Source of the DNA: Haliotis rufescens
Lineage: Eukaryota
Direction: 5' to 3'
Length of the DNA: 64,000 nucleotides
Assembly: GCF_023055435.1 (NCBI RefSeq)
Contig: NW_025964376.1
Location: forward strand, 1,240,001 to 1,304,000
Under the pieces are notes generated by a model that searched no databases, was not told the DNA's origin, and worked only from the letters and a program-made list of their open reading frames with translations. The position numbers were made by a program, and so were the translations under genes. The first letter of the stretch is position 1; each line of letters starts with the position of its first letter. This document shows positions 3,771-43,502 of the stretch, in pieces.

Positions 3771-5749
3771 CAGAGATTTCCGATGACTATAGAAATGATG
3801 AAGGGTTTGTTGCCATCAACGTTGTCAAATTCATAATTATGATCAGGTAACAGCTTTGCTGTTTCACTTCAAATTTCGTTTACCAATTTATGTGGCACAT
3901 TTATAATATTTACCAGAAAATAATATCAGGCAGGCACTTTTTTATCGCAGAAAAACTTTATTAGGTCCATTATCCAATGCATAGTAATTCATTTGGTGGG
4001 TTATTATGTAGAATGACATTCAAAACGGAAAAGTGCAGCGCATGGATTCCCTGTTCAACCAACATACAAGTGATGAAAGTGCTGTCAACGGATCATTTTC
4101 TACTGTCACCACCCTCCAATCAAACTGTTTTTTATAACACTTCCATGAATTAACATTAAATAAGTATAGTTAACGTTTCGATTGTTTATAATGAATAACT
4201 GAATCTCAAAGGAAATATTCGTGGTCGTATGTGTATACTCTGAGGCAATATGAAGTGGTCTCTACACATTCAGGTTCATGATGAGCACCATGGATGTGAC
4301 AAAGTGGGTAATATAACGGCTACAACCTGTAGCTGTGTCATGTCATGGACTTTCTTACCACACAAAGCTGACAAGTGGTGGAATGATTGAAATAAGCACG
4401 ATATAAAGTTAAACACCAAATATATCATTCAGCGAACTGATATTCTCCTCTAGTTTGATGATTGAGTAACTGTACATTCAGATACTTCAGCACAACTCAC
4501 ATCTTCCATTATCGATTGTAACGCATGCGACGTCATGATATGACAATAATTTTCTGGAACAGAAATATATCGGTTACGAATATGAATCCATGACAGTTTG
4601 TACTGAACAGAAGCTCAATAAGCCCGTTATCCTTATGATAAATTTGACAACCACAAATCCATTTGGATCCGTACTTCTGCCCTATATGGGGTATGCATTA
4701 TGCATACAGACATCGCCACATGATGTGTGACCAGTACACTCAAAGTATTGACTTGTAAACTATCTGGTAGGACAGCTTTAGTAAGATTTAGAAACCGACC
4801 AAATGATATTCTGGGGGTGGGGTGAATTGTGGGGTGTGGGCAGGGATTTTATCCAAAACAAAATTGTCCAGACAATTCTTGAAATTAAATCAATTATCTA
4901 ATATGCTTCGGAGTGTTGAGAGAAAAGACATTGCCTGCAACAAAAAATACATTTGCGCAATGTTTTTCTTCTACAAAAGAAATCAAGGCTCAAAGTTTTG
5001 AAGAACAATATATATCTGGTTTGGAAGCTGTTCCTAGAAAAATCTATTCTCGATACAAAATCCCAGATATTGAAGGTCATAATCGTCCAGAAGCCAAAAT
5101 AGTGATTTAACGAACAACGGACGAAGGGACCTACTGAATTTAACTGAACTTTATACAATCAGGACGCATTCACTGTACACTATATACAATAGTACATCTG
5201 GTAGTCAACATGGTATACAAGTAATATATGCACAGTTGACATCACCATGATTTAAACTTAAACATGATTATTTTACAACATTTGAACAGTTTTCTCACTG
5301 CGGACACGGCGCCAAAGTATATCACTGCTGGTTCATCATATTAGAATATATATAACTGAAACAAGTGTAATAATGAACGTCTTCTCAAGAAGTCAATCAT
5401 GTAAAGATGGTTCAGTGTGGTCATATTAACTATCCATAATGGAATCTTTTGGGAATAGTAGAAGTTTAAAGATGCTGGTCACATATTAATCAAAGGCACA
5501 TACAGATCACTTGCATCATTCCCCAATTATTAACCGTCTTCAGAGACAGAAAACAGATATGCGTGTCTGGATGCTTCGCTCACTCGTAGAGGACATATTA
5601 GAAGCCTCGATGCTGATTAGAAAGTTCACATGACGCTACCTCCTATGGCAGTAATACACTCTTCAAAACAAAGAAACCCACTGGCAGTATGTAGTTCAAT
5701 GAACCTGACTACGCCATCAATCAGGTATATAAATTGGATGTATGTAATT

Positions 5750-5990
5750 GGATAAAACGCCGCCATTGTCGATTTGCAATGTCTTAAACGCCATTGTTTT
5801 CATATTTGTTAAAAAATGCAATGGACGAAAACAGTAAAGCAAAATGCACGTGCAAGTTATGGCATTCGTAACTCGTATCCAGTCAGTGCCGAAGAGATCC
5901 AGAGCCGTGATTGCTGCCCGGGGTGGTCACACGAGATACTGAGTTAAGCGCAACCTTGTGGCCTTATGTGACATGACAATGAACAGTTTT
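5750..5990 (+). mobile_element. Internally deleted Tc1-like remnant
   Basis: gccgtgattgctgcccggggtggtcacacgagatactga encodes the Tc1 C-terminus AVIAARGGHTRY*. Confidence 0.6.
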
Positions 5991-6797
5991 CAATGCCTTT
6001 GTACAACGAGAACATGTGACTTTCGTGCTCCAAAATGTCATATTTGTATCTATGATATTAAGTTAAATGTATCGACTGCATTAGACTTTATTATCTACCT
6101 GTGCGTTTCTTATTGTGAAGAGTGTATAGTTTCCGTTCGATCAGAAATAGACATTATTACAATATATACCCTTGTCTAACCGCTCATTGAACGTTTTACA
6201 GCACCAAATGTTACCATTTTCAGGTGTTGTTCCTAATGTAAGTATGTCATTATAATGTGAGTGATTGATTTATATGTATGGTTTCGCTCATTAATAATCA
6301 AACATCAAATGTGTTTCCTTAAGCGTATACTATCATATTACAAGTGAAATGTGCTGGATGAATATGATTTGACAAACGAATGGAATATTGGGTGAGTTGG
6401 TTAGTTTGACAGTATTACAATTATATATACATATAGCCGTATCAAATTCACGTTGGAGGAAAGCAAAAGTAGTGAAGACCAAAGGTTTAACATTTCTGTG
6501 TAACCAAAGAGAGTAGCCAGTGAGGTCTTGTACTAAAAATGGAGCCATACATATTTTGTATTCAAACCCTATTAGCAGATCCTGTCACGTCGAGGGAATC
6601 ACATCTGCATTCCGGGGCCTTAGACGAGAGAACAGTTATCAAAATATGAAAACTTCACAAAAGAGGAAATTGCCTTCTTGTTAATCTATGTCCTTAGTCC
6701 GTAACAGTTTTATACATATATACTCTAATTGATATTGAGTAACGGAGACATTTAACATAATCAACTTTACAAGTAAGTTAGAGATTTTCATTGCTCT

Positions 6798-6896
6798 AAG
6801 CAATATTCATGAAATGGGCTTCCGACTAGGGCCTTCACAAATTGTACCTGAACATTCAAACCCGGGTCTTCGGTGGGTCGTAACTAGGCTTCCCAA
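6798..6896 (-). mobile_element. Degenerate SINE fragment (13332 family) abutting minisatellite 1
   Basis: agcaatattca..ttcacaaattgtacc..aacccgggtcttcgg..actaggct resembles 13365-13490; absent from the paralogous site near 30050. Confidence 0.55.
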
Positions 6897-8813
6897 CTAC
6901 TGTACAGCTCATCGCCGTCCTACTGTACAGCTCATCGCCGTCCTACTGTACAGCTCATCGCCGTCCTGTACAGTTCCTCACCGCCCTACTGTACAGCTCA
7001 TCGCCGTCCTACTTTACAGCTCATCGCCGCCCTACTGTACAGCTCATCGCCGCCATACTGTACAGCTCATCGCCGTCCTACTGTACAGCTCATCGCCGTC
7101 CTACTGTACAGCTCATCGCCGTCCTACTGTACAGCTCATCGCCGTCCTGTACAGTTCCTCACCGCCCTACTGTACAGCTCATCGCCGTCCTACTGTACAG
7201 CTCATCGCCGTCCTACTGTACAGCTCATCGCCGTCCTGTACAGTTCCTCACCGCCCTACTGTACAGCTCATCGCCGTCCTACTGTACAGCTCATCGCCGT
7301 CCTGCTGTACAGCTCATCGCCGTCCTACTGTACAGCTCATCGCCGTCCTGTACAGTTCCTCACCACCCTACTGTACAGCTCATCGCCGTCCTACTGTACA
7401 GCTCATCGCCGTCCTGCTGTACATCTCATCGCTGTCCTACTGTACAGCTCATCGCCGTCCTACTGTACAGCTCATCGCCGCCCTACTGTGCAGCTCATCG
7501 CCGTCCTGTACAGTACCTCACCACCCTACTGTACAGCTCATCGCCGTCCTACTGTACAGCACATCGCCGTCCTACTGTACAGCTCATCGCCGTCCTTCTG
7601 TACATCTCATCGCCGTCCTACTGTACAGCTCATCGCCGTCCTACAGTACAGCTCATCGCCGTCCTACTGTACATCTCATCGCCGTCCTACTGTACAGCTC
7701 ATCGCCGTCCTGTACAGTACCTCACCACCCTACTGTACAGCTCATCGCCGTCCTGTACAGTTCCTCACCGCCCTACTGTACAGCTCATCGCCGTCCTGTA
7801 CAGTTCCTCACCGCCCTACTGTACAGCTCATCGCCATCCTGTACAGTTCCTCACCGCCCTACTGTACAGCTCATAGCCGTCCTGTACAGTTCCTCGTCGC
7901 CCTACTGTACAGCTCATCGCCGTCCTGTACAGTTCCTCACCGCCCTACTGTACAGCTCATCGCCGTCCTGTACAGTTCCTCACCACCCTACTGTACAGCT
8001 CATCGCCGTCCTGTAAGTTCATCATCGCCCTACTGTACAGCTCATCGCCGTCCTGTACAGTTCATCATCGCCCTACTGTACAGCTCATCACCGTCCTGTA
8101 CAGTTCCTCACCGCCCTACTGTACAGCTCATCGCCGTCCTGTACAGTTCCTCACCGCCCTACTGTACAGCTCATCGCCGTCCTGTACAGTTCATCGCCGT
8201 CCTGTACAGTTCATCGCCGTCCTGTACAGTTCCTCACCGCCCTACTGTACAGCTCATCGCCGTCCTGTACAGTTCCTCACCGCCATACTGTACAGCTCAT
8301 CGCCATCATGTACAGTTCCACACCGTCCTACAGTACAGCCCATCGCCGTCCTGTACAGTTCCTCACCGCCCTACTGTACAACTCATCGCCGTCCTGTACA
8401 GTTCCTCACCGCCCTACTGTACAGCTCATCGCCGTCCTGTACAGTTCATCGCCGTCCTGTACAGTTCATCGCCGTCCTGTACAGTTCCTCACCGCCGTCC
8501 TGTACAGTTCATCGCCGTCCTGTACAGTTCATCGCCGTCCTGTACAGTTCATCGCCGTCCTGTACAGTTCCTCACCGCCCTACTGTACAGCTCATCGCCG
8601 TCATGTACAGTTCCTCACCGCCCTACAGTACAGCTCATCGCCATCCTGTACAGTTCCTCGCTAGCCTACTGTACAGCTCATCGCCATCATGTTACAGTTC
8701 CTAACCACCCTTCTGTACAGCTCATCGCCATCATGTACAGTTCTTACCACCCTACTGTACAGCTCATCGCCATCATGTACAGTTCCACACCGTCCTTCAG
8801 TACAGTTCCCCAC
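6897..8813. repeat. Minisatellite 1, 23/20-bp units (TACTGTACAGCTCATCGCCGTCC / TGTACAGTTCCTCACCGCCC)
   Basis: About 1.9 kb of tandem units; a 43-bp dimer becomes dominant in the right half. Confidence 0.98.
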
Positions 8814-10183
8814 AGTCCTGTAAATCTTATGTGTTTTTTACGGCAGTAATTCAAAAACCGATTTGAACCCTTTTCATAATGATCATGCCACTTTTTTTCT
8901 TTGAAGCGTTGTATATTTGAAGCAGAAGATAAAAGTCGTGACCTTTTAAAACAGACAGTTTTGGGTAATAACAATGTTCGGTTTCGAGTTTCATTGAATC
9001 GCCACGACTCGTATTGCAGCTTTGTATTAATCGTCAGACAAAGTTATGCATCGTAAACAAACTTCATTATTGGAAAATCGTTAATCTGAAGAATAGCATT
9101 CACCTTCTAATCAAAACAGTAAATCCCCGTAATGGGGACAAACTCTGTCCGAAAGCCGTGACTGACACAAACAAAATTGAAATCATTATAGAAATGGAAA
9201 TGTCTACACAGTGCTCTTACAAAGAACATTCACATATATACATTCGTGGCTCAATGTCATATGAATTACGACACCACGATGTCTTACGTGGGTGAGAGAG
9301 AATCTGCTCTACCGGTGCCATCCGGCGTGTGTAGTAGATGGTCACTAGGTGGGGAACATAAACAAGTGTGAAGGAGTTGTCCCCTTTTGGCCATGACCAA
9401 ATAGGAACTTGACAATGAAGGGATGCAAATACTGCATGCACCGATGTGAGTGATGCGTAAACGAGGTGCAGTTCGTACTTGACTTGAAGCCTCAGCACAA
9501 AGATGACTGAAAGGGCAATGTCACAGACTTGACACATCTTTGAATTCGGATTACGTGAGTCCTGTGATGTTGTGCCTTGATTGAATACGCATCGTTCGTG
9601 TGTTGACATTAGTAGCTAATGATCTGAACCTGAAAAACCTTATCCTAAATATTTACCATGAGAAATAACGGCTTTTTGTCCTTTTTTAGAGATAATTACC
9701 TCACATACCGACTTTCTACGAAAACTGAAATCCAATACCCTCGTCAAATTCTTACACAATGAGCTAATAATACCCTTGCATGAATACATTTAAACACATG
9801 TATGGCAGCAGCACATTGTTTTCTCAAAAAGGGTGATTAAGCAAAATTATGCATTCTCTTGGAGGCTTCCGTGGGTCAGTTATTTAGAACACGCCGCCAT
9901 CAGACAGGCTACTTGGCACAACAAGACTTGCATGCAGGAGATTTCAATCCATCACACATCCCTTTATAATCAGTGGAGACTATCAGAGTTGCAGAGAACG
10001 TGATAGCACATACAGTTACAGTATGAGGTACAAGATTATAAACAGAGCTTGCCAGTGTATAATTAATTATTACAAGTATTATTTGTTTTTGTTCAATATG
10101 TTATGTTATGTAAAGATAAAGCTTACACAATTTACACATTTGACCTTCATTTCTTGACATAATTGACCTTCATGTCTATCTTC

Positions 10184-10184
<1 letters not shown>

Positions 10185-10235
<51 letters not shown>

Positions 10236-10247
10236 CTCTATCTATCT
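10185..10247. repeat. (CTAT)n microsatellite
   Basis: Direct read. Confidence 0.97.
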
Positions 10248-10929
10248 GTTTTTGATGATGTACATTAATTGAGGATGAAACGTAGATTTCCCCACTAGCA
10301 CTCAAATATACAACTACCATTTGTACACACATATAGCACAATTAACAACTTAATGTCATTGTTATTCATCTGAATAGAATTGTGCTATTTTTTGCTTTGG
10401 CTTTTTGCTATTTTTCCCGAATTGTTTTGTTCGAATTTAAGAAAAAAGGATTGCGTACTTAAAGCGGCTACTGTCTATGTATGTTTAAGAATATGTTGAG
10501 TGATGTTGACAGATATATCTACCAAGAAGGAGAGAGCCGATAAGAAAACAAGCTCATTTACACTCGTGGACTACTAACCATCAATCATCGGAACCACCTT
10601 TAAGTCGTGTTATTTTCTGGGCTTGATTGTATAAAGCATTTGTGTGAATAGTGAATATATTCTATCGGAATAAAAATAAATTTCTTCTGAAATTAAAAGA
10701 TGCATCTTTCAATACATATGCATGCAGACATTTCCTCGACCTTTAGGTCATGATTCAAAATTTCCACCTGCATGTTCAAACACGGACAACAATTTTGATG
10801 TGTGCGTGTATTTGTTGGGAGCATGATACTCACAAACGTGTATTTTTTAAATGTGAACACCACACAGTGATTGTTCAACCACCAGGTGCTCATGAAAACA
10901 CTTTTGATTAACCGCAAATATCCCTCACG

Positions 10930-11270
10930 CCACGACCTGCTGAAAACCAACGTCTACGTGCCGTGGGTATACTGCAAACGCAATGTTGCCAGACATTGTT
11001 TAAGTTCACTGAAACACAATGTCATCTCTTTGTGGACAGCAGGACAACAATAATTGCCACGGGAGAACACAACTCATCATTGTCAATGCTGATTTGATTC
11101 CGTACGCGACCCGGACGACGTCGTTCGAGATCATGACCTGCCCTTAGTGCAGGGACGCACCGTTACGTCATGCAGGAACATTACCGCCCACGTGTTGTGA
11201 GGCAGCATAACATGGCTGTACTGCCTTGGACGGCTGTTTCTCCAGACCCTTCTCCCATGGTGCTGGAATG
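10930..11270 (+). mobile_element. Highly degenerate Tc1 transposase remnant
   Basis: QRNVARH, SGRPR-like and QEHYRPRVVRQHNMAVLPWTAVSPDPSP fragments resembling QDNARPH..WPA.SPDL.P. Confidence 0.55.
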
Positions 11271-11830
11271 TTGTCGAAAAAAGCAATTGTCAGAAAAAAT
11301 ATTGAAAAAAAAAATTTTTCAGACTGTTGAAAACAATAAATTTGCATGCCACCAAAAAATAACATTGTCGCAAGATTTGTTACAAAAATATCCAGCCTTC
11401 TTACAAAATTTCAGCCGCGCCACACGACCGAATGTCAAATGGTCGGTCCCAAATACGGCATTTTAATAATTAAGGAATATCAAATGTTCATAGTTTACAG
11501 TAAACTGCATCCGGGAGCGTGCTATTGGATATTACACTGCATATGAATATTTGTATATTTTCGCAATCACATATTTGCAAAATGTAACATGCGACTTATT
11601 TCATTTGAGCAATATTAAGATTCTGAAAAACACATACTGTTAACCTTCTAAGAGTGCGAGCAACGAAAACTGAATACCTTATAAGATAAAAACGTGTGAC
11701 GTCAGAAGAAGCTATTCTCATACATAAACGATACGTTGACTACCATGCCCGCTACTATCATACGTGGGTGCATTATTTGGATGACTGAATGACAACTTAC
11801 ATTTGATGATGGTGGATGTCATGCAGAGTA

Positions 11831-12037
11831 GGGGCGCAGGTGGCCCAGCAGAGTTGTGTCCTCGTAGCACGCCTGAAACCAATGGTAGTGGGTTCGAGTC
11901 CCAGGTCACCCGATTATGTATTTAGGTTTGGCAGCACTATACCAATCCTCGCGCGTATCCCCAAAGTAATCGTCTGAGACCTGCTTCACTTCGGGCTTTT
12001 CTCCAACATCTGATATAACCGGAATACTCACTCCTCA
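11831..12037 (+). mobile_element. tRNA-headed SINE, family A, degenerate
   Basis: ggtggcccag, B box gggttcgagtccc, body shared with 20447-20727. Confidence 0.75.
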
Positions 12038-12569
12038 GTATGTCAGAGTAAGGGAACATAAACTTTAGACCTATCATTTTAGGTCAAGTGCACAGTCAGT
12101 GTTTTCTATTATATGTGTTGCAAATGATACTCAAAGCTTGAGGGTAAACTGTTAAATTGCAAAAACTATGTAAACATCTATATCTATATTTGGATAATAA
12201 AACGAATAATGAACTTTGTGGATCGTTAGGTCAATTTGACACAAGGATTTAGTCACGGAAATTGCGGTGAAAGCAGTTCCTTGACAAATACAGGGACTTC
12301 ACACTGAGTGGGTGTGAAATATTAATAATGTAATAATGCATGATTGCTAAAACTAGGACATGGTCTCGAGTTGGGGTAATTGTTAAAATGCACACATTGA
12401 TAACGGAATATATAAAAATCATGCCTGAAGCATTTTGCTAAAAAATCTGTTGTTTTTTCTAATGTTTAAGGGTAATACAATGGTTTGGCCTTACAAATGA
12501 CCAGGCGTGAAACTGTTCACAGAAAGTAAAGATAGTACTGCCCCTCATTACCAATAACTTGTTTTGTAT

Positions 12570-12802
12570 ATTTGTTATCTAACGCCGCACTCAACAATAA
12601 TCTAAATATATACAGGCGGTCTACAAATATTCGAGTTTGGACCAAACAATCCAGTGAGTGCCATTATGAGCATCGATCTACGCAATTGGGATAAGATGAC
12701 AGGAATCAAGCTAGTCAAGGAGTCTGACTACCCGATGCCCACAATCGCCTCTTACACGAGCATGGGTTGCTGAAGACCCATTCCAACCCGGATCTTTATG
12801 AG
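12570..12802 (-). mobile_element. Non-tRNA short element, family C (LINE-like 5' and 3' ends)
   Basis: 5' part resembles the LINE 5' UTR (19757-19815), 3' end resembles the LINE/SINE tail; related pieces at 58400-58535 and 63539-63643. Confidence 0.7.
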
Positions 12803-12948
12803 TATTTGACCAATAAAACTGGTTCCATGACAGCATAATTATAAGGATGGGCATTACTACTGCTCCATGATTTTGTTTTATTTCTTCTGCTATGAGGCTG
12901 TCAGCAACTTTGCAGCTATATCGATCATGTCTTGCTGAACATATCTGA

Positions 12949-13184
12949 GTGAGTAAGTGAGTGGGTTGGGTTTACGCCGCTTTTAACAGTATTCCAGTTA
13001 TATCACGGCGTGTCAGCTTAATGTGGGAGGAAAGCCCGAAGTGATGCTGACAAACCTAGAAACATAATCGGGGTGAACCGGGATTCGAACCTACAATCAA
13101 AGGTTTCTGGCGTGCCCAAGGGACGCAACTCTGCACAGCGAATCGCGGCGCCTTTGACGACTGGGCCACCCGTGCTCCCTGTAA
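12949..13184 (-). mobile_element. tRNA-headed SINE, family A, internal deletion
   Basis: Near-identical to 20447-20727; (CTCA)n tail; possible TSD atatctga. Confidence 0.9.
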
Positions 13185-13331
13185 ATATCTGAAACTAGGT
13201 GAGATAATCTGTGGTTGATATGAGCAACGTCCGTGACGTAGCGGTACGATATAAGAAACAATGAACCACGATTCGTTTTACAATACACATGGTGTACCTA
13301 CGACAGATACTGTTCCTGAATCACCACGTTA

Positions 13332-13498
13332 GTGACTGAGTGAGTTTGGTTTAACGCCGCTATTAGCAATATTCAAGCAATAGCACGGCGGGGGACACCA
13401 TAAATTGGTTTCACACATTGTACCAATGTCGGGATACGAACCCGAAACTTCGGCGTGACGAGCGAACGCTTTAACCACTAGGCTACCCGACCGCCCCT
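13332..13498 (-). mobile_element. tRNA-headed SINE, family B
   Basis: A box tagcctagtgg, B-box-like gggttcgtatccc, (CTCA)n tail, 13-bp TSD aatcaccacgtta (13319-13331, 13499-13511). Confidence 0.93.
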
Positions 13499-14437
13499 AA
13501 TCACCACGTTAAGAAACAACAATTTTTCTGATGGCTAACAACTGGCAAAGGGTAATGTGATGTCTTATTTGTGTCGCATTTCAATCCTTGCATCTTAATA
13601 TACTTAAAACAATAGACAACTTCTTGTTCGAGTCACTGATAACACTATTTTTGTGACAAGTAAAACATTAATATAAAGTTGGTAAATATAAATACCTCAA
13701 CCAGTCTCGATTATCCATCGAAACATATTCCACTCGGCGTGAATTTACATTAGCGGTGAAAGTACTTGAACTACCCTCGTGCACAAATATACCATGGTGC
13801 TATGTCAGGGCGAGTTCCAAGAGAAAACCAATAGGGATGTTGTTCACGTTTTTGCGCTTCATGTCATCATTTCTACACCAATAAGCCTGATAACACAGTA
13901 TAATCACCCAGTCCTCAACAGTCCGCTCTTACCATTACAGGGTACTCTGAACTTTTCTGTCCCGGAATCCCCTCGGCGTTATTCATGTTACAGTCGTTGT
14001 AGTGGATCACGTGGAATGTGGATTATTGGAACCCTAAAATAAATATTATATCAGTATGGTTAGTTACATACATTCTCGTTTGGATAATACATGATAACAA
14101 AGCACTGAATGATGTACATAGCCTTTCATTGAAGTGCATATCACACGGTGATTTTGCCGCATAGATATTGAGGTGAACCGTTTACTTTCAATAGGCGGAC
14201 CAGGCGGACTATTCATAATGCTGAAAAAGAGTACATTACCTAAACTAGGGTGTGGCCTCGAGTGGCTTTTGCTACATATTGAGAAAATGTTAAAGTTGAT
14301 AGACAGGCGTCGGCTAATCCATCTGGGCTTTTGTAGGTACGCCGATGGATGTCAGTGAGTGAGTGAGTTAAGATTTAACGTCGCATCGGTAGTATTTCGG
14401 CCATATCGTGACGAGAGGTACATTAATAATACATATA

Positions 14438-15937
14438 AACTGACGTCCAAAAGAAACTTTACCAGAGTTTGAAATCACTCTTGCTCAAAAACAACAAAAC
14501 ATCCATGCATGAAGTAAAGTGTATTGAGAAGATCAATATATCAATATAATCAACACTGAAAATGACAACCATACCGCGACCGAGAATGACGTCAGAGCCC
14601 CCCAAAGTTGGGTGTGGTACAAAACTCGAGCCTATCATGGACAATAGGCAGAGTACATAAACAATCGCTCACGTTCAATAACAAGTCATTAGTAGCGTGT
14701 GTGACCACCAAATACCTCAATACGCGCAAACACTCTTCGACGCACAGAAAAAGTCAGTCGTCTGATGAGGTAACGTGGGATTTGACGCCATTCTTCTTGG
14801 TGGGCCAGGATCAGTTCTTGCCGGTTGGCTGGAGAGTGTGGTCGTTGTCGAACACGACGATCCATCAAGTCCCAGAGGTGTTCTATGGGGGACATGTCGG
14901 GTGAGCGTGCATGCCACGGCAGGTCGTTGACGTTGTTGGCTGCGAGGAAGTTAGTGACAATTCTGGCTGTATGGGCGCCAGCGTTGTCATGCTGATAATC
15001 GAAACCACGTGTCTGCTGTTGGAGAAATGGTAGGACAACTGGACGAAGAATGTTATCAATGTAACGCTGAGCTGTCAAGTTTCCGTCAACGATGACCAGC
15101 GGTGTCCTCTCCTGCCCACAGATCCCTCCCCACACCATGACACTCCCTCCTGCACGCAACACGCCGCCGTTCGTTCACCCCTTCGGTGGTAAACACGTTG
15201 TCTTCCATCAGCCCTAAACATACAGAATCGACTTTCGTCAGTGAAGACAACCCTCTGTCAGGCACGTCGTTGCCAACGTCGTACAGTCCGGACCCATCTC
15301 AATCGCAGACGACGATTTTGCGCTGTCAATAGCTGTCCTCTGTATGGTCTAAAAGCCCTGATTCCATGAGCCCTGAGTCTCATGGCCACTGTCTGTCGAC
15401 TAACCCTGTGACCTAAGGCATTTGTCGCCGATGACGTCACTGTCAGGAAGCGATTTCGGAGGTGCAAGGTACGCAAGTACCGGTCATCATGGGGCGTGGT
15501 CCACTGGGTCTGCCTGTTCTTGGCCTGTCAGCGGTCGGCCCTGTCTGTCTGTAACGTTGCATCAAGTTAGTAACGGCAACACGGGAGCAACCGAAGGTTC
15601 GTGCAATATGGGCGTGGGTGGCTCCCATCTGTACCATACTCAAGGCTCGTTCACGTTGTTCGACTGTGAGTCGTGGCATTTATTTTGTGTTTCTTTTTCA
15701 CTGTGGATGTCTGACTTGCCGTTGCAATCGTTTTATACCCCTTACCCGCACGTGCATTTGCAGTTGTCCGTGGTGCACGTGTTTTTCACTTTTTCGCGTG
15801 TTATCTCGCAAACATGTAACAGACGATTAACATTTCTGCATACACTATGTGTTTTAGATAGACCTCATCGAAAACAATTTTATACTTTGTCTGAGTTTTA
15901 TATTTTCAATTGGTAAAGTTTCTTTTGGACGTCTGTT
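14438..15937 (-). mobile_element. Tc1 transposon (DD34E), frameshifted transposase 14689-15679
   Basis: 27-bp TIRs (14438-14464, 15911-15937), TA TSD, motifs FTDESRF, HDNAGAH, SPDMSPIE with 34-residue spacing, GGHTRY*. Confidence 0.96.
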
Positions 15938-18606
15938 TATTTAGACAATATAAAAAGCTGTCAACGAAGAACAGTACAATAAGTAGAATATCACAGTGTC
16001 TATTTAAAACTAGCTGAGAATATATAAAAGTCATAAGTATTAGTGAACACCACAATGTAAAAATGGGCTAGAGATCGTCAGTAACTAAAGGGAGATCACC
16101 ATACTAGGGACCATGGGAACGTACAGTGCCTTTGCTTCCTGCATGGACCCTGCAGGATTTATATTATCCCTTCAGATCAGTCACTGGCGACAGTGTACCA
16201 ATTAAGCCAAAGATTAAAATGACGAATATTCTACATTTAAAAGCCTGGCATGCATAAAAATACGTCGAAAGATACGGGACTTACATCCCCTCTTAGGGGG
16301 ACAATAAGTTTACGCTACTTCAACCCCCTCGAGGGTACAGCCATTAACAATCTAAGTTATTAATTAGCACTACCAATTTTTAAAATCATACAGTGTGAAC
16401 ATCAAAATGTATATATTTATGTATAAGTTCTATTTCTTTAAAAAAAACATATTATTAAATGAGAATGAACTTTACTACAAAGGTCATTCACTGTTTTTAC
16501 ACTGAAATATTTATCCCTTATGATGGAAAAGTCAATACAGCCTTTCATCACAAGGATAAAAAACGGAGCATCCTCACTTTTTAACAGATACCCATGAGTA
16601 TAATCTAGAAGGGTAAATACGACATCGTCGCATAATGACCTCTTCACACCTGGACTGACAGCCCAAGTAGGAGTATCCAATATTTGGTTTAATTGCATGT
16701 AGTTTATTGATACCTACTTGGGTGTCCCACTTCTTTTGCATCAGATCACGGATGTAAGATCTAATTATAGGTTTATAATCATTGTATGGGATAAGAAGTG
16801 GTGTCATAGATTTATTGAGTGCTGCTTTTGCAGCAGCATCAGCCATTGTGTTACCAGTGATACCAACATGGCTTGGTAACCAACAAAAGACGATGTTGTA
16901 TTGGCCAGTAGCAAGATCATTAATTAACTCAAGAATTTCAATTAAAAATTGATTTTTACAAGACATATTTTAATAGCCATGAAGGCATGAAAGTGAATCT
17001 GAAAAAATAATGAATTCTTTATATTTGGATTTGTTCTTGATATATTTTAGAGCTGTTAAAATTGCGTGTGCTTCTGCTGTGAATATGGAACTATTAACGG
17101 GTAATCGTGAAGCTACTGTTCTTGATCCAATGACAGTGGAACTAGCAACTTCGTCACCATCCTTGGATCCATCTGTAAATATAGATTTATAAGTGTCATT
17201 AGTGTTGCGTAATTGATTGTATTCTTGTTTAAAAATTAGTGGATTTGTATCAGATTTCTTAAGTCTATTTAATGTGATGTCTACATTTGGCCTTACCATT
17301 TGCCAAGGTGGCGATGAAAATAGTTGTTTGGGAGCTATATCCTGAAAGTTAATCTTAGCAGCAGAAACGACATATTTAATTCTTATTCCAAGTGGTGGAA
17401 TAAGAGATGTTTTCTTATTGTAAATATCTACGTAAAGAGGATTAAAAACGCAGTTAAAAGCCGGATTTGACTGATTAGAATATAATTTAGTGATGTATTG
17501 TAAAGGTAATTTCAGATGGCGTTGTTTAGGAGAAGGTGCAACAGACTTGGAATAGGAGAAGTGCGAAAGGCTCTAAGACAAAGCCTCGGACCTTGGTGAT
17601 GGATAGTATCTAGTCTTTGAAAATAACTTTTACATGCTCCACCATAGACGATGGAGCCGTAATCAAGTTTGGAACGGATCAGTGATTTATATGCAAGTGT
17701 ATGCGGTAAGAAAGTTAGATGGCTGTCAAAAATAAAACCCGAGAACTTTGCCTCCTTTACCACTTTGATAGGGCTGCCATTCAGTCTTTATGTGGCTTAT
17801 ATTTTCTGCAGAAATGTATACAACTAGTTTTTGATTTAGAGAATTTAAACCCATTTTCAAGGGACCACTTGTGAATTTTATTGAGACAGATTTGTAACTG
17901 CCTCACTGTGGTATGCATATTTTTACCACGACAAGATATATTAAAATCATCCACGAAAAGTGATCCATCCACTGAAACCTTTGACAGACTATTTATTTTA
18001 ATACTAAACAAGGTAACAGACAAAATACTGCCTTGTGGGACACCCTACTACTGATTATAATGGCCAGACAGGGTGGTTCCCTCTCAAACCTAAATCATGA
18101 AAATCCTTTAAAATACCATGCTTCCAGGTAGTATCGTATGCTTTCTCAAGATCAAAGAAAATTGAAACTTCGTGTTGTTTATCTACAATAGCATTTTTAA
18201 CAAAGGATTCTAATCGTACTAAATGATCAATAGTACTTCTATTCTTCCGGAAACCACATTGAGTATTAGAAAGATGACTGTTGGTTACCAAAAAACATAC
18301 TTATCTATCATTTATTATTCGTTCGATGGTTTTGCAAACACAACTGGTTAATGATAAAGGGGGGTAATTTAAGGGATCTGCATAATCCCGTCCAGGTCTT
18401 TGTATCGGGACCACAATAGCACAACAAGTGTTGTGTTCGGCAAAAGGAACACTGTTCATGGAACCAGTGCCCTCAACCACCAGAATCCCTTCCTCCGCCG
18501 ACACAGGGGCGCAACCAACGGCAAACGGGTTGCCCAATTCGGTCGCCTTTTACGACCAGCAATGGGGTGCCGAGGACACATTCTACCCTGGGTTCACACG
18601 GGGGAA

Positions 18607-18661
18607 GAGCTGTTAGCGTTACCCAGCACTCACCACGGGGAGATTGCTCATCACGAATGCC
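18607..18661 (-). ncRNA. Compact HDV-like ribozyme at 5' end of minus-strand LINE
   Basis: GGCAUUC-GUGAU-GAGCA-AUC-UCCCCGU-GGU-GAGUGCU-GG-GUAAC-GCUAA-CA-GCUC; G1 abuts the TSD. Confidence 0.8.
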
Positions 18662-18797
18662 CGATGGATGTCAATTTTGTTTATCTATAAACGGCTTCTA
18701 ATAGGATTATAATCCCAAATGACAACGGTCGATAAAGGAATGCTCACATTTCCCGTTAAGATTGAAATTGACATACGATAAGAACACCTTGCCAATA

Positions 18798-19699
18798 AAC
18801 TCAACTGTGTCAATTTCGCAAGAGTTGAAGCTCATCTGTGTCAAATGTGTCAAGAGATGAAGGTCAACTGTGTCAAGAGATGAAGATCAACTGTGTCAAG
18901 AGACGACGCTCAGCTGTGCCATTTGTGTCGAGAGATGAAGGTCAACTGTGTCAAGTCAAGACATGAAGCTCAGCTGTGTCATCTGTGTCAAAAGATGAAG
19001 TTCAACTGTGTCAAAGTGATGAAGCTCAACTCTGTCAACTGTGTCAAAAAATGAAGCTCTACTGTGTCAAGAGACGACGCTCAGCTGTGTCTTCTGTGTC
19101 AAGAGATGAAGTTCAACTGTGTCAATTGTGTCAAGAGGTGAAGCTCAACCGTGTCATCTGTGTCAAGAGATGAAGCTCAACTGTGTCAATTGTGTCAAGA
19201 GGTGAAGCTCAACTGTGTCATCTGTGTCAAGAGATGAAGCTCAACTGTGTCATCTGTGTCAAGAGATGAAGCTCAGCTGTGACAGCTGTGTCAAGAGATG
19301 AAGCTCAACTGTGTCAATTGTGTCAAGAGATGAAGCTCAACTGTGTCAAGTCAAGAGATGGAGCTCAAATGTGTCATCTGTGTCAGGGGATGAAGCTAAA
19401 CTATGTTAATTGGGTCAAGAGATGACACTCAACTGTGTCAACTGTGTCAAGTGATGAAACTCAGCTGTGTCAACTGTGTCAAGAGATGAAGCTCAACTGT
19501 GTAAAAAAGAGATGAAGCTCAACTATGTCAACTGTGTCAAGTGATGAAACTCAGCTGTGTCAACTGTGTTAAGAGATGAAGCTCAACTGTGTAAAGAAGA
19601 GATGAAACTCAACTGTGTTAAATCAAGTGATGAAACTCAGCTGTGTCAACTGTGTCAAGAGATGAAGCTCAGCTGTGTCAAATTGTGTCAAGAGATAAA
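18798..19699. repeat. Minisatellite 2, left part (AAGAGATGAAGCTCAACTGTGTC[AACTGTGTC], 23/32-bp units)
   Basis: Direct read; continues at 25778 after the LINE insertion. Confidence 0.97.
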
Positions 19700-19754
19700 G
19701 GCACTCGTTGAGAGCAATCTCCCCGTGGTGAGTGCTGGGTAACGCTAATAGCTC
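19700..19754 (+). ncRNA. Compact HDV-like ribozyme at 5' end of plus-strand LINE
   Basis: GGCACUC-GUUGA-GAGCA-AUC-UCCCCGU-GGU-GAGUGCU-GG-GUAAC-GCUAA-UA-GCUC; starts where the satellite stops. Confidence 0.82.
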
Positions 19755-20352
19755 TTTCCCCGTGTGGACCCGGGGTTGAATTTGTCCATTGCTTGTCGTA
19801 TGAGGCGACTAAAATTGGGCAAACTGTTTGCCTTTGGTTGCGCCCCTGTGTCGGCGGAGGACCGGATTCTGGTAGTTGAGGGGACTGTTTCCAGGAACAG
19901 TGTTCCTTTGCCCAACACACTACTTTGACCCTTACTTCGCCTAGACGGGTGATAGGATGGGCTCGGTTCTATCAATCGGCTGGTCATGTCTAGCTCTGTG
20001 CTGGAAAATTGTTTGTCTTATTTACTACATTATATTGTATTTTGGCTTTGAATGTTAAACTTTCTGTAAATACGTTTGCCTAGAGTCCAATGCCAGAAGG
20101 CGGTGGCTCATGGGCCAATCTGGTAATGTCGACCTCTGAGTTCTATATGTCTCCAATTTCTTGTTATGAGCAGAACCAGCCTAGCATTATTATTGGTAGA
20201 CAATTATAGCTATTCATGCCGTATTAGTTGGAGTATATCACCCTTGTATCCCCAGTGTTTGCATGCCGGATCTCCGCTGCAGTGAAACACTGTCCTTGTT
20301 GACACTCCATGGTGGTTGAGGAGCGGGGGTGCTGAATCTTACTACCTACATC

Positions 20353-21690
20353 ATGTCGCTTACCCATTCTGGCTCCGTTAGAAATGACAAGAAAAGGAGA
20401 TTAGAGGCTGATCATCTCTCATATCATGAAGATGTATCAGTTTCAATTGGATGAGTGAGTTGGGTTTAACGCCGCTTTTAACAGTATTCCAGTTATATCA
20501 CGGGGTGTCAGCTTAATGTGGGAGGAAAGCCCGAAGTGATGCAGGTCTCAGACGTTTACCACTTCGGTGAAACCCACGAGCACGGGTATGGTGCTGACAA
20601 ACCTTGAAACATAATCGGGGCGAACCGGGATTCGAACCCACAATCAAAGGTTTCTGGCGTGCCCAGGGGACGCAACTCTGCAGTGCGAATCGCGGCGCCT
20701 TCGACGACTGGGCCACCCGTGCCCCCTTATCAGTTTCAAAACCAGAAACCAGAAACTTGGGCCAAGTTTATAGTCATTGAATCTACAAATGGAGATCCAC
20801 TTAAAATCAATCCTTTTGTTATCTCAAAGACAATTCAGTCTATCTGTGGTGAAGTTAAGAAAGTTTCACGTCTCCGAGGCGGTTTGCTCCTTGTTGAGTG
20901 TGCCAAACGGCAACAATCTATAAATTTGTTATAACAACATCAATTTGCAAACATCAGTGTTGCTGTTTCAGCGCACAAAACACTAAACTCTAGTAGAGGC
21001 ATTGTTAGAGACAGAGCCCGTTGTCTGGTGGACATGTCTGAGGAAGAAATAGTTTCCGAACTTAAAGACCAAAATGTCACTTCTGTTAAACGCTTCACTG
21101 TCAAGAAACAGGATGGTAGAATTAAACCCAGCAACACCTACCTGTTTACATTTGCTTTGTCTACTGTACCCAAATCAATAAAAGCTGATTATTTCAATAT
21201 CGGGGTGGAGGTGTATATCCCCTCTCCACTCCGATGTTATACATGTCAATAGTTTGGGCATGGTTCCAAATCCTACCGTTTCTCTCATCGTTGTCACCGC
21301 TGCAGTGAGGATCATCAGGACTCTGATTGCACTAAAGATCCTAAATGTGCAAATTGCAGTGGTGACCATCTGTCATCCTCTAAATCTTGCCCTGAGTGGC
21401 AGATTTAAACAAAAATCCTAAAATTAAAATATGAAACCAATATCCCTTTCAATGAAGCTAAATAACACATTCTAAGTCAGACTCCAGCAAAGTAATCTAC
21501 TACTATCTCCTACTCAGCTGCTGTCTCAAACAAACTAAAATCGGTTTCTATTTCGTGCCAAATAGATTTGACGTGGATTAGGTACCTGTAACTGTTGAGG
21601 TTCATAACTCATTTGACCCTCTGGAGATGGAGATGGAGTTGTCCGTTTTCCTCACGTGGCCGTGAGAGATCCCCCATAGAACCTCCATGA
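20353..21690 (+). pseudogene. LINE ORF1 (gag-like), disrupted
   Basis: INPFVISKTI..LRGGLLLVEC; PLRCYTCQ*FGH..RCHRCSEDH..KCANCSGDH..CPEW; SINE insertion and stops. Confidence 0.88.
20447..20727 (-). mobile_element. tRNA-headed SINE, family A, full length, inside LINE ORF1
   Basis: A-box-like gtggcccagtcg, B box gggttcgaatccc, 12-bp TSD tatcagtttcaa (20435-20446, 20728-20739). Confidence 0.95.
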
Positions 21691-24600
21691 ACCAATATCA
21701 TTTAGCGGAATTCCAGAGGATTGAGGAATAATTCTAATGAAGTACAGTTATTAGCACAAGATTATAAACCATCAGCATTTAGATTGCAGGAAACGTATCT
21801 TAAGCAAACTGATAAATTTGAAATGCGTCAGTACAATTCATACAATTCTTTTTCCCCAACAGGTGATAAAGCTGGGGGTGCTTCAATTTTGGTGAGGCAG
21901 GGCATTATCCACAGCCCTGTTTCTCTTAACTGTAATCTTCAGGCTGTTGCTGTCCGTCTTACCTTACACATAACCTTCACACTTTGTTCATTATATATTT
22001 CTCCATCCTCGAATCTTCAGCAGTCCGATCTTCAGGATTTATTTGACAAGCTCCCAAAGCCCTGTATCACAATGGGTGATCTTAATGGACATAACCCTCT
22101 ATGGGGAAGTTCCAATACTAACAATAAAGGGAAAATCCTTGAAGATTTTATTTCTAATAATAATCTATGCATATTCAACGACGGCTCGAACACAAATTTA
22201 CATCCTGCAACTGGTACATATGCTGCTTTAAATCTGTCAATCACAGATTCTAACATATATAATGAATTTGAATGGTCAGTCCATGATGACCTTTGTGGAA
22301 GTGATCATTTTCCAACAGTAATTACAGCTGTAAATCCCACTGATGCTCCACCTTCAACACGGTGGGATTTTTCAAAGGCCGATTGGCCATTATTTCAGAC
22401 TATATGTACTGACAAATTGAAACCAAACCTTTTCATGGATGTACCTGTTTCAATTAAATCATTCTCTGACAAACTGAAGAACATAGCTGATGAAACTATT
22501 CCTAAGTCCTCTATGAACCCACATATTCGGAAACCGTGGTTTAATTACGAATGCAAACAAGCTAGGAAGCGTAGGAAGAAGGGAGAGACATATGTTCGAC
22601 GCCATCCTACTGTACATAATTTAAACAATGTCAAAATCAATTCTGCCAAAGCTCGACGAACCTTTAAACACAATAAACGTCAGTCTTGGAAGAATTATGT
22701 TTCTTAAATAAATTCACGCATGCCTATGTCTAAGGTATGGAACATGATCCAAAACATCAAAGGCAAAGGTTCCAAAACTAATATTCGTCATTTAAAAGAT
22801 GACAATAATTTATTGACTGAAAAATCAGATATTGCAAATAAATTGGGCGAAACTTTAGCTAAACATTCTTCTTCGTCAAATTATATTCCAATGGCGAAGA
22901 TAATAATGAAGTTTTTTCACTACATGAACTACACACTGCGTTAGCACAAGTTCATGATACTGCAACTGGTGCTGATGATATTCATTATCAGCTCTTAAAA
23001 CACTTGCCTGAATCTTGTCTCACAACACTACTGAATATTTTTTATGATATTTGGACAACAGGACATTTTCCCCCTCCATGGAGAAATGCTATAGTTGTAC
23101 CCATACCAAAACCTGGCAGGGATCATACAGATCCATCAAATTATCGACCTATTTCATTAACTAGCTGTGTTTGTAAAACCATGGAGCGCATAGTAAATAG
23201 TCGATTAGTTTGGTTTTTAGAAGCCAATAATCTGATTAGTAACATCCAATACGGTTTCCGTAAAATCCGAAGTACAATTGACTATTTGGTTCGTTTAGAA
23301 TCATTTATTAAAAATGCTTTTGTAAATAAACAGCATGCTGTATCTATCTTTTTCGATCTTGAAAAAGCCTATGATACCACTTGGAAGCATGGTATTTTAA
23401 AAGATTTACATGACTTTGGTTTAAGAGGCCGCTTGCCTCAATTTATATCACAGTTTTTAACAGACAGACAATTTCAAGTTCGTGTTGGATCAACCCTGTC
23501 TGATCATTTTAATCACAGGGCACTATCACTTGGAAACATGGTATTTTAAAAGATGTACATGACTTTGGTTTAAGAGGCCGCTTGCCTCAATTTATATCAC
23601 AGTTTTTAACAGACAGACAATTTCAAGTTCGTGTTGGATCGACCCTGTCTGATCATTTTAATCACAGGGCAGTTTGTTTAGCATCCAAATAAATAGTTTT
23701 TCTAAAGTATTAAATGACTCAATAGATGGGTCATTGTTTGTGGATGGTTTTAATATTTCATGCCGTGGTAAAAATATGCATACCATTGAAAGACAGTTAC
23801 AGTTGTGTCTTAATACAATTAATAAATGGTGTCTTGAGAATGGATTTAAGTTTTCACAGACCAAGACAAATTGAATACATTTCTGTCGGAAATATAAACC
23901 CCATAAAGACCCAGAGCTCTCTTTAGATCGCACTCCAATTAAGGTTTCAAAAGAGGCCAAATTCTTGGGATTGATTTTCGACCACCATTTGACGTTTTGG
24001 CCACATATCAAATATTTAAAGACTAAATGCCTGAAGGCCCTAGATTTGTTGAAAGTCGTCTCGAATTCTAAGTGGGGGTGGGGGATCAGACAACTCTCCT
24101 TCACTTATATCGATCATTAATCCGCTCTTAATTGGATTATGGCTCCATTATGTATGCTGGAGCTTGCAAGTGTAATTTAAAAAAGCTAGATTCAATCCAC
24201 CATCAAGGACTTAGACTGTGCCTTGGTGCTTTTAGAACTTCTCCTGTTGACAAGGTCGTATCAAATTGTCTCTTCAATATATCACTAAATTACACTCTAA
24301 TCCTTCTAATCCTGTTTATGACTCTGTTTTTCATCCCCTATATGAAGAACTGTTTCAGAAAAAAACAAAGCTGGTTCCACCACTTGGAATTCGGATCAAA
24401 TCAAATATTATGGCTGCAAATATAGATCTAGATAAAATCTCACCATATCGTCTCTTGTCTACAAATCCCTGGCAGCTGGTGAGGCCAGAAGTAGACGTTT
24501 CTCTGAACCGTTTTATTAAATCTGACACAAATTAACTTATAATTCAACAGGAGTATGTACAATAAGGAAAGAAATATGACACTCACCGTTCCATCTTTAC

Positions 24601-25296
24601 TGATGGATCCAAGGACGGTGGCAAGGTGGCATGTGCCACTGTCGTTGGATCAAAACATTTATCATCTAAAATACCAGACAATAGCTCTATTTTCACTGCT
24701 GAGGCCAATGCTTTTCTTACAGCCTTAGTATACATTCAACGACAGTCTGCATATAAACAATTTATCATCTTTTTTTATTCTCTTTCTTGTCTTCAGGCAC
24801 TGAAAAAAGTCTCTTCTAATCATCCAATTATTTTAGATATTTTAGAACTTTATAATGATCTTTCAACTGGCCAATATGACATCGTCTTTTGTTGGTTGCC
24901 CAGTCATGTGGGCATAAAAGGCAACACATCCGAGATCTTGTGCAAAAGAAGTGGGACACCCAAGTAGGTATAAATAAATTACAACAAATTAAGCCAACCA
25001 TCGGTTACACCTTCTTGGGTTGTCAGTCCAGATTGGAAGAGGTCATAATGCGACGATGTCGTATTGGCCACAGCAGGTATACACATGAACATGTACTGAA
25101 AGGTGGGGATCCTCCATTTTGCATCCCTTGTGATGAGAGAATCACGGTCAAGCATGTCCTGCTTGACTGTATTGATTTTGCCATCACAAGGGATAACTAT
25201 TTCAAATCATCATCTCTTAAGGATCTTTTTAATAGTATTAGTTGTCATTTAGTTACGGGATTTTTAAAAGAAATAGAACTTATTGATAAATTTTGA
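21687..25296 (+). pseudogene. LINE ORF2 (APE endonuclease, RT, RNase H, zinc finger), disrupted
   Basis: LQET, GDLNGH..WG, GSDHFP; YRPISLTSCVCK, FFDLEKAYD; FTDGSK, WLPSHVGIKGN; CIPC..HVLLDC. Confidence 0.95.
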
Positions 25297-25777
25297 TTGT
25301 GTAGATAGTAAATTTTTATAATTTTGGTAGTGTTTAATCTGTAACTTAGATGGTAAGTGGCTGTATCCTCAAACGGGGTTGAAGTAGTGTCCCTCTGAGA
25401 GGGAGACCACATCCGGAAAGTACTTTTATTCCAACCACAGCTTTTAAATGTAGTATATTTGTTTCTTGTTAATTCTGGCTTAATTGCGTACCATCGCAAG
25501 CAGCTGAAGGAATGGTGTAAATCCTGCTTGGGAGCCATGCAGGTAGTAGAAGCGTTGTTAGTCCCCATGGTCCCTAGTAAGGTGGCCTGACTTTGGTTGC
25601 TGGCGATCTATAGCCCGATTTTATAATGTATTGTTGAATAATAGGTTATTATTTCAATTGTTCTAAACTAGTTTTACTTATAAACTGTGATATACTAGTT
25701 AGGTTTTATATTAATGTTCAAGTTACGATATGGCTGAAATATTGCCGACGTGACGTTAATTTTAGCTCACTCACTCA

Positions 25778-32753: not shown

Positions 32754-32972
32754 GGGGGCACGGGTGGCTAAGTCGTCTAAGGCGCCGCGATGAGCTGTGC
32801 AAAACACTCCAGAATCCTATGATTGTGGGTTCGAAGCCCGGTTCGCCCCGATTATGTTTCTAGGTTTGTTAGCACCATACCCGTGCTCGTGGGTTTCACC
32901 GAAGTGGTAAACGTCTGAGACCTGTATCACTTCGGACTTTCCTGCCACATTAAGCTGACACGCCGCGATATA
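32754..32972 (+). mobile_element. tRNA-headed SINE, family A, 3'-truncated
   Basis: gggggcacgggtggctaagtcgtctaaggcgcc, B-box-like gggttcgaagccc, family body. Confidence 0.9.
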
Positions 32973-33117
32973 AGATGGAGGAACATAAAGTGAGCATAAC
33001 CGGACAGCAACAGCTTTAAGGGGTGTATTTAGAGGAACAGGGCTATGTATAACACCCTCCCTCACCAATACTGAAGATCCTACCGCGACTCTAGGTCCTG
33101 GAGGAGAGAAGTAATTA
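32973..33117 (-). mobile_element. I-group LINE endonuclease fragment
   Basis: LVREGVIHSPVPLNTPLKAVAVRL matches LVRQGIIHSPVSLNCNLQAVAVRL of ORF2. Confidence 0.8.
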
Positions 33118-33119
33118 TA

Positions 33120-34522: not shown

Positions 34523-34639
34523 TAGTAACACTTCTGTTTTCACAAATGCACTTACGAATGATAAAAGTGGGCAATGTTGGATAGAAAACAATTCTGGTTT
34601 TGCACCTGTAGTTGAAATTATGTCTAATCTCCATACAAA

Positions 34640-36660: not shown

Positions 36661-37484
36661 CACATGCTTGATGTTAGGGTGACTTGAATACATATCAATG
36701 TATTCAGATGTAATTGTTTGATTTCCACATCTACAAGTTATGGAAAGAAAGAAAATACAATAACATTAACAGTTAAATGTATGCTATATGACAATTCTCT
36801 ATCTTCATGAGAGAAAACGCATAGCAAGAACTGTGTCATATGTAATTGACCACAGATTTCTGCCTATCATCACAATAACACCTTTCTGAAGCTCACATTT
36901 ACTTGTATTACAAAAGTGGGTTAGGACAACACAATACATACATTGAATATACATTGCAAAGAAACAAACACAATCATAGTTTCATGTTCCAAAGTGTTGT
37001 TAACGATTTAATCCCTGCAAGAATGGGAGGCTGTAGTACAAATAACTTAGTACCAAAAATTTGGAGTAACCCCAAACTCACAATTGAACTTTATATGTTG
37101 ATAAACATGGCTATAATAGCTCCCATACAAAATGCCCATAGTATCAAGTGTGTGGGTGTGGCCCAAATCGAGCAAAGCAAAAGGCTACCAAGTTAGCCAT
37201 GTGCTCTGCGTTGAAAGAGACGTAACTCCCATAGCGGTTTAACAGATCGGAGACCGCTATCGTGACATATAAGGAGGGTTACTCCCAAAATCCAATTCAC
37301 TGATGAATATAAACTAAAATCGAATGTACACTTATAAAAGATACATAAAATATGGTTGTATGATAACATAACTAGCATATCAAATGCCTAGCAATATCAG
37401 TCGAATTGTAGGAAAGATAATGTGAAGTGCTTCAGTTAGTACTTCTATGTGGTAGATGTCTGCCGAATGAATATTTCTCAAGCC

Positions 37485-43469: not shown

Positions 43470-43502
<33 letters not shown>
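43470..43502. repeat. (ACT)n microsatellite
   Basis: Direct read. Confidence 0.95.

What the first reader, a model, noticed from the sequence alone, without database searches (positions are those of the whole stretch)
10123..10176. Reciprocal case: seed of minisatellite 2 sits in the left arm
Seen: the reverse complement of 10123-10176 (atgaaggtcaattatgtcaagaaatgaaggtcaaatgtgtaaattgtgtaa) is about two units of the array at 18798-19699 and 25778-27840. It lies at the collinear position (ttacagtatgaggtaca near 10016 vs ttacggtattgagtaca near 27838-27854). The seed has AAGGTC, as do edge units (about 18860, 18940, 27828), while the core has AAGCTC. So each arm expanded a different seed with a 23-bp base period and kept the other in near-ancestral form.
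Basis: seen in the sequence. Interest (0 to 1): 0.7.

Follow-up and report, generated by a model that had tools for sequence, protein, structure and literature searches.

The report
Decayed short twin of a minisatellite
A 54-base stretch is the worn-down, two-unit twin of a 3-kb repeat array in the other copy of an old duplicated chromosome segment; the array likely grew after the duplication, which is ordinary repeat evolution, and growth rather than shrinkage is not proven.

Summary
The reverse complement of 10123-10176 is two 23-bp units plus a 9-bp sub-unit of minisatellite M2 (profile score 47.9; next best -15.2 among 805,732 positions). M2 units were found nowhere else in the genome. The seed lies about 90 bp from the end of a collinear block in an old inverted duplication, far larger than the window (about 18% diverged; it holds GPCR and EGF/VWA genes). 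The interpretation needs four corrections. (1) The two M2 arrays are most likely one array split by a 6-kb LINE. (2) Collinearity holds on one side only: beyond both seed and array lies a rearrangement junction. (3) The seed is short but not near-ancestral in sequence: each unit is 3/23 from the G-type unit, as neutral decay predicts. (4) Edge-to-seed kinship rests on one base; whole-unit distance shows none. The shared 23-bp period and the reciprocity look coincidental: M2 is mostly 32-bp, M1 and M2 are unrelated, and two more arrays have no seed. Post-duplication expansion is likeliest (0.6); truncation of an older array remains open (0.3), as no outgroup was found. Known kind of event, modest interest.

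The parts
10122..10176 (-). M2 paralog ('seed'): two 23-bp units plus one 9-bp sub-unit, decayed
10175..10247 (.). (TCTA)n microsatellite; on the minus strand it runs into AGATGAAG, the head of a possible third, truncated unit (inferred)
10033..10122 (.). left-only AT-rich spacer of about 90 bp between collinear flank and seed, bounded by TGTA; single copy
5034..10032 (+). left arm of the old inverted duplication within the window (continues beyond the window start to C598:1216807)
27838..59778 (-). right arm within the window (continues to C598:1339847), interrupted by many insertions
18798..19699 (+). M2 array, part A (30 parsed units); its far end is a rearrangement junction; G-type units at 18854 and 18932
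25778..27840 (+). M2 array, part B (64 parsed units); ends at the collinear flank; G-type unit at 27806
19700..25777 (+). full-length non-LTR retrotransposon (endonuclease, RT, RNase H) splitting M2; 13-14 bp of array phase repeated on both sides, like a target-site duplication
14356..18661 (-). second, internally deleted LINE of the same kind with a nested DDE transposon (14435-15940); exact 13-bp target-site duplication. With the first LINE it makes a false inner pair of 'arms'
10270..18797 (+). block L2 (apart from inserted elements): its two-copy parts have an inverted paralog at C598:1351955-1361765, not next to the array
27268..27478 (-). 211-bp inverted piece of the neighbouring LINE (24448-24658) inside M2, with 10-bp microhomology to the unit at the return junction; shorter second copy at 27174-27225
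6897..8822 (+). minisatellite M1 (23- and 20-bp units), preceded by a 98-bp left-only insert (6799-6896)
30015..30061 (-). M1 paralog in the right arm: about one full unit plus partial ones, collinear on both sides
37636..38715 (+). intact single-exon rhodopsin-family GPCR in the right arm; only a 90-bp remnant (3599-3688, minus strand) in the left arm

Best explanation
The 54-bp stretch is the left-arm paralog of minisatellite M2, and it likely descends from a short (about 2-3 unit) G-type tandem repeat that was copied by an old inverted segmental duplication, then decayed on the left while the right copy likely grew to about 90 units. Shown: homology, orientation, one-sided collinearity, single locus, LINE between the two array parts, decay of both seed units. 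Inferred: at duplication the repeat was already tandem with near-identical G-type units. On the right, slippage and repair-driven copying (gene conversion, template switching) added units, and a C variant at position 10 swept the interior while a few G units survived near the ends. A LINE later split the array, and a template switch copied 211 bp of that LINE into it. On the left the repeat was too short to be homogenised; it took neutral substitutions, a 90-bp insertion and a microsatellite. M1 did the same independently on the other arm; nothing couples the two. No function is implied.
For: Homology far above chance; M2 single-locus. Flank two-copy, collinear up to the last array units, which align one-to-one with the two seed units. 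Arms differ at 15.9% of 8,884 gap-free columns (JC 0.18; 0.20-0.22 near the seed): 4.1-5.1 changes expected per lineage in 46 bp, 6 seen against the G-type unit (Poisson p 0.23-0.39). G in both seed units and in 3 of 90 array units, all within 7 units of an end (p 0.003 at k=7); the unit tree joins both seed units to the G-type edge unit (95/92). The array is star-like: 18 of 89 units identical, about 1.7 changes per unit, younger-looking than the seed decay. Split array: LINE ends mapped, 13-14 bp phase overlap, while the sister LINE has an exact 13-bp duplication. Template switch: the neighbouring LINE is the best match (96% vs at most 94%) among 40 scored of 937 candidates, with microhomology. 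Precedent: in human segmental duplications the repeat number exceeded that of the outgroups in all but 2 of 69 cases (PMC2812944, passages).
Against: No outgroup: no third copy near 8 GPCR paralogs or by genome search, and organism B shows both the seed and M2 units. Both M2 copies sit at rearrangement junctions, so the seed may be a cut stump. A possible third truncated unit next to the microsatellite points to some loss on the left. Edge kinship rests on one site; whole-unit distances do not differ, and the best gapless 55-bp match is a core stretch (26569, 12 mismatches vs 13 for 18854; over 46 bp 18854 wins 7 vs 8). Low diversity inside an array reflects homogenisation, not necessarily recent growth. 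A target-site duplication inside a tandem array is not diagnostic; rare 14-mer sharing between parts A and B gave no clear gradient.
Confidence: 0.6

Rival explanations
1. Stump, not seed. M2 was already a long array when the region was duplicated. The left copy was cut at the rearrangement junction or later shrank by deletion, leaving the flank-proximal 2-3 units, which then decayed.
For: Both copies of M2 end at junctions with block L2. A truncated unit head lies beside the microsatellite. The left arm has lost other things, such as most of the GPCR. G at array ends is expected here too, since ends homogenise slowly (PMC5615363, passage). The seed already has the compound 23+9 structure.
Against: G units occur at both ends around a C core, which fits growth inside a small G array. 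M1, collinear on both sides, has only about one unit in the other arm, and M3 and M4 have no counterpart, so arm-specific births occur here. Expansion dominated in human duplicates (PMC2812944).
Confidence: 0.3
2. Later copy. The seed was copied from the array edge into the left arm after the duplication, by conversion or template switching between the inverted arms.
For: Template switching is seen in this array. One block with the VWA exon is less diverged between the arms (p 0.088 vs 0.13-0.26), a hint of conversion.
Against: The seed is as diverged as its flanks, differs by at least 7 of 46 from every array stretch and is present in organism B. Any copy must be nearly as old as the duplication.
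Confidence: 0.07
3. Coupled or selected reciprocity: each arm had to amplify one 23-bp seed, for example to break the pairing of the inverted arms.
For: One array with a short paralog on each arm, both containing 23-bp units.
Against: With two arrays, opposite arms is a coin toss. Unit lengths are mixed, the units are unrelated, and two more arrays in the duplication lack seeds. Transposon insertions break arm symmetry far more than the arrays do.
Confidence: 0.02
4. Chance likeness, or a dispersed repeat family.
For: The seed is short and AT-rich.
Against: 63-bit gap to the next best site; no M2 unit elsewhere; right orientation and place.
Confidence: 0.01

Closest known systems
Variable minisatellites between paralogs in segmental duplications (De Grassi and Ciccarelli 2009, PMC2812944; outline, section 9 and passages read)
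   Same: Paralogous copies differ in minisatellite unit number; units of about 30 bp; expansion favoured.
   Different: There: young, near-identical human duplicates, exonic repeats of about 4 units, polarised by mouse and dog. Here: an 18%-diverged inverted duplicate, non-coding, about 2.4 vs 90 units, no outgroup.
Minisatellite birth by slippage between short flanking repeats or at non-contiguous repeats (Haber and Louis 1998; Taylor and Breden 2000; seen only as summarised in PMC3389668, passages)
   Same: M1 fits: the other arm has about one unit bounded by short imperfect direct repeats. The M2 unit has an internal GTCAA repeat when position 10 is G.
   Different: The M2 seed is already a tandem repeat, so it records early growth or loss, not the first duplication.
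Slow homogenisation at array ends (McAllister and Werren 1999, as cited in the review PMC5615363; passage read)
   Same: An older variant (G) survives near the ends around a homogenised core.
   Different: One site in a 3-kb single-locus array; one end is a rearrangement junction; edge units are barely more diverged than core units (1.9-2.2 vs 1.7 changes).

Membership tests
Single-locus minisatellite | Head-to-tail units of about 10-60 bp | tested here: met
   units of 23-33 bp, 94 parsed
Single-locus minisatellite | Unit confined to one locus | tested here: met
   17 of 17 and 27 of 27 pattern matches at this locus
Single-locus minisatellite | Copy number varies between haplotypes (VNTR) | not testable with these tools
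   only short-read contigs were offered; they break inside the array
Paralogous proto-minisatellite (unexpanded progenitor) | Homologous to the array unit | tested here: met
Paralogous proto-minisatellite (unexpanded progenitor) | Collinear flank on the array-proximal side | tested here: met
   about 90-bp left-only insert
Paralogous proto-minisatellite (unexpanded progenitor) | Collinear flank on the far side | tested here: not met
   block beyond the seed pairs with C598:1351955-1361765
Paralogous proto-minisatellite (unexpanded progenitor) | Short state is ancestral by outgroup | tested here: inconclusive
   no third copy; organism B shares both states
Paralogous proto-minisatellite (unexpanded progenitor) | Edge units closer to the seed than core units | tested here: inconclusive
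   position 10 yes (p 0.003-0.03), whole units no (p 0.12-0.54)
Transposon-borne tandem repeat (Helitron/MITE-type; recalled lead) | Unit and flanks dispersed in many copies | tested here: not met
   flank two-copy, spacer single-copy, unit single-locus
Full-length non-LTR retrotransposon insertion (19700-25777) | Endonuclease and RT domains, shared 5' end and tail, target-site duplication | tested here: met
   Pfam PF14529, PF00078, weak PF00075; ends; duplication 12 of 13 letters but not diagnostic inside an array

The most novel reading that the evidence does not exclude
M2 is the pivot of the duplication. A short tandem repeat caused a fold-back, multi-switch replication event that copied about 33 kb in inverted orientation and patched in block L2 from 90 kb away, so that two of the three junctions fall at M2. 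The same template-switching habit then grew the right copy and pulled in an inverted LINE piece. The locus would be a dated record of a minisatellite that both caused a gene duplication and was amplified after it.
Probability: 0.15. Interest if true: 0.5.

Novelty: new member of a known kind. Interest (0 to 1): 0.27.

Why it matters
Minisatellite origins are hard to see because the starting state is overwritten. An old duplication that keeps the short state of two arrays gives an internal comparison, and the G-to-C layer plus the LINE insertion and capture give an order of events. That makes a tidy example, not a new principle: paralog-specific expansion and slow array ends are described. It would matter more if an outgroup showed that the repeat sat at the breakpoint of the gene duplication before it grew.

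Tried and rejected
Third copy as outgroup: 20 stretches of 10 kb around 8 of the 9 closest GPCR paralogs gave only dispersed-repeat hits to the arms and no M1/M2 unit. A paralog GPCR just left of the window: none, only a remnant. Inner 'arms' (15980-18661 vs 19700-25701) as part of the duplication: rejected, they are two LINE copies. Collinearity inside 10250-18797 with the array's far flank: none. RNA gene in the arms: Rfam on 1-40000 gave one tRNA-like hit at 13428-13486 only. Expression: no RNA holder listed; one small-RNA run laid 0 reads, which is no test. Seeds for M3 and M4: none found; the best M4 scores (22, 24) are below the shuffle mean of 27. Rare-word continuity between array parts A and B: uninformative. 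First unit parser had an index error and was redone. Four units broken by the LINE piece or misaligned (25958, 27162, 27251, 27421) were dropped before the edge tests (90 of 94 kept); the tree also left out the gapped unit 27806. The tree has 23 columns and an unsettled bootstrap; units exchange by conversion and are not independent, so the tree and the permutation p-values are indicative only. PMC1461170 (Taylor and Breden) is not held. Four paper searches (listings only, apart from three papers read in passages) showed no report of this locus or of reciprocal expansion; the library is partial. Earlier-findings look-ups returned nothing.

Full report
Observation. The reverse complement of 10123-10176 reads as two 23-bp units and a 9-bp sub-unit of the repeat that fills 18798-19699 and 25778-27840. 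A 23+23+9 profile made from array units alone scores it 47.9 bits; the next best site outside the arrays scores -15.2 among 805,732 positions of window, neighbours and paralog regions. Pattern searches of the whole genome found M2 units only in the two arrays: 17 of 17 exact and 27 of 27 with up to two mismatches. M1 is single-locus too (35 of 35). The likeness is real and is not a dispersed family.

Setting. The window is C598:1240001-1304000 of a 1.33-Gb animal genome. Self-alignment shows an inverted, non-coding similarity between 5034-9971 and 32705-27904. With neighbouring sequence the chain runs from C598:1216807 to the seed on the left and from the array to C598:1339847 on the right. 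Sixteen blocks differ at 15.9% of 8,884 gap-free columns (JC 0.18). The duplication holds a rhodopsin-family GPCR, intact at 37636-38715 and reduced to 90 bp at 3599-3688, and a pair of genes with EGF and VWA exons.

Position of the seed. The flank aligns to 10032 vs 27838. About 90 left-only bases follow, bounded by TGTA, and then the seed; in a global alignment the last two array units fall on the two seed units. On the far side collinearity ends. After a (TCTA)n run, 10270-10670 and 13180-14354 are two-copy sequence whose paralog lies inverted at C598:1351955-1361765. The 136 bp before the array (18662-18797) continue that same block across a LINE insertion with an exact 13-bp target-site duplication. 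The paralog goes on into non-repeat sequence where the window turns into array. So both M2 copies end at rearrangement junctions, and 18798 need not be the array's original end.

One array, not two. 19700-25777 is a full-length non-LTR element: its 5' end matches the family end mapped, it encodes endonuclease, RT and a weak RNase H, and it has the family tail. The array phase is repeated by 13-14 bp across it (12 of 13 letters). This fits insertion into one array, though a duplication inside a tandem repeat is not diagnostic. The apparent inner pair of inverted arms is just this LINE and its sister at 14356-18661.

Is the seed ancestral? In sequence, no. Each unit differs at 3 of 23 sites from the G-type unit, which survives unchanged at 18854 and 18932, and the two differ from each other at 4. 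Six changes in 46 bp match the 4.1-5.1 expected from flank divergence (p 0.23-0.39). The simplest reading (inference) is a homogeneous G-type tandem repeat at the time of duplication that has decayed since. G at position 10 is in 3 of 90 array units, all within 7 of an end (p 0.003-0.03 for edge widths 3-10). Whole-unit distance to the seed is no smaller at the edges (p 0.12-0.54), and other seed alleles are spread through the array (p 0.15-0.58). A unit tree joins the seed units to the G-type edge unit (95/92), on that one site, with 23 columns. The AAGGTC at 27828 may be a 9-bp sub-unit variant, as one contig of organism B suggests.

Reciprocity. M1 does have a short paralog at 30015-30061, collinear on both sides, of about one unit; that is the cleaner case. 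But M2 is mostly 32-bp (56 of 91 units; 19 are 23-bp), M1 mixes 23 and 20 bp, and the units are unrelated (p 0.13-0.16). Two further arrays in the duplication, M3 on the left (29 bp) and M4 on the right (41 bp), have no seed in the other arm. Two arrays on opposite arms is a one-in-two outcome.

Other genomes. Twenty DNA-type runs of six studies hold the left flank, of organisms A and B; one may be the source of the window. Contigs of two B runs cover the seed and spacer (9523-10195 with 7 other letters and 1 gap; 8790-10195 with 12 and 2), with no difference inside 10123-10176 among the 40 rows shown; 18 rows were not shown. Both also hold M2-type contigs at the array edge and span the M1 paralog. 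Both states thus predate the A/B split, which gives no polarity. No third copy was found.

Mechanism. Shown: homology, orientation, one-sided collinearity, decay, the LINE between the parts, and an inverted 211-bp LINE piece inside part B whose best match among 40 scored of 937 candidates is the neighbouring LINE (96% vs at most 94%), with 10-bp microhomology to the unit. Inferred: growth on the right by slippage and repair-driven copying with a C sweep in the interior, and neutral decay on the left (0.6). The main rival is that the seed is the stump of an array that was already long (0.3); the junctions at both copies and a possible third truncated unit keep it alive. A later copy from array to arm (0.07) must be nearly as old as the duplication.

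Known kinds. Paralog-specific minisatellite expansion is described for human segmental duplications, with more units than the outgroups in all but 2 of 69 cases (PMC2812944; outline, section 9, passages). Birth models are summarised in PMC3389668 (passages), slow array ends in PMC5615363 (passage). No supplements were read. Verdict: a real, tidy example of a known kind; interest 0.27.

Noticed in passing
window 27268-27478 and 27174-27225 vs 24448-24658: Inverted internal piece of the neighbouring LINE inside the array, with 10-bp microhomology to the unit at one junction, plus a shorter second copy; looks like template-switch capture.
   Followed up: partly
L056:5630-6393 (C598:1225629-1226393) vs C598:1308029-1308786: The block with the VWA exon is about half as diverged between the arms (p 0.088) as other blocks; conversion or selection. 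The right copy reads TGA a few codons before the left copy's stop.
   Followed up: partly
window 37636-38715 and 3599-3688: Intact single-exon GPCR of an expanded family (9 paralogs at 54-67% identity, several in opposite orientations on C2); its left-arm twin is a 90-bp remnant.
   Followed up: partly
L056:4105-4887 (C598:1224105-1224887): 29-bp minisatellite M3, left arm only, just upstream of the EGF exon; its unit resembles the common SINE/LINE tail of this genome (by eye, not tested).
   Followed up: partly
L078:2412-3115 (C598:1306412-1307115): 41-bp minisatellite M4, right arm only, next to a (GT)n run; no paralog found.
   Followed up: partly
window 23378-23671: 149-bp tandem duplication (97%) inside the RT region of the LINE.
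   Followed up: no
C598:1354337-1356810 and 1358208-1360679: 2.47-kb direct repeat at 99.9% identity, 1.4 kb apart, inside the L2 paralog: young LTR-like element, recent duplication or assembly artefact.
   Followed up: no
C598:1340893-1349000: Element with about 1-kb inverted arms (84%) and 170-bp subterminal tandem repeats, foldback-like.
   Followed up: no
window 27994-28698: Contigs of organism B (X8, X10) skip 705 bp of the right-arm flank, including its most conserved block; X8 also has a contig skipping 28056-28193.
   Followed up: no
window 9510-9610 vs 28330-28230: Very well conserved non-coding block (about 90%) with a GTGAGT donor-like motif in both arms; possible exon or regulatory element; no Rfam hit.
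   Followed up: no
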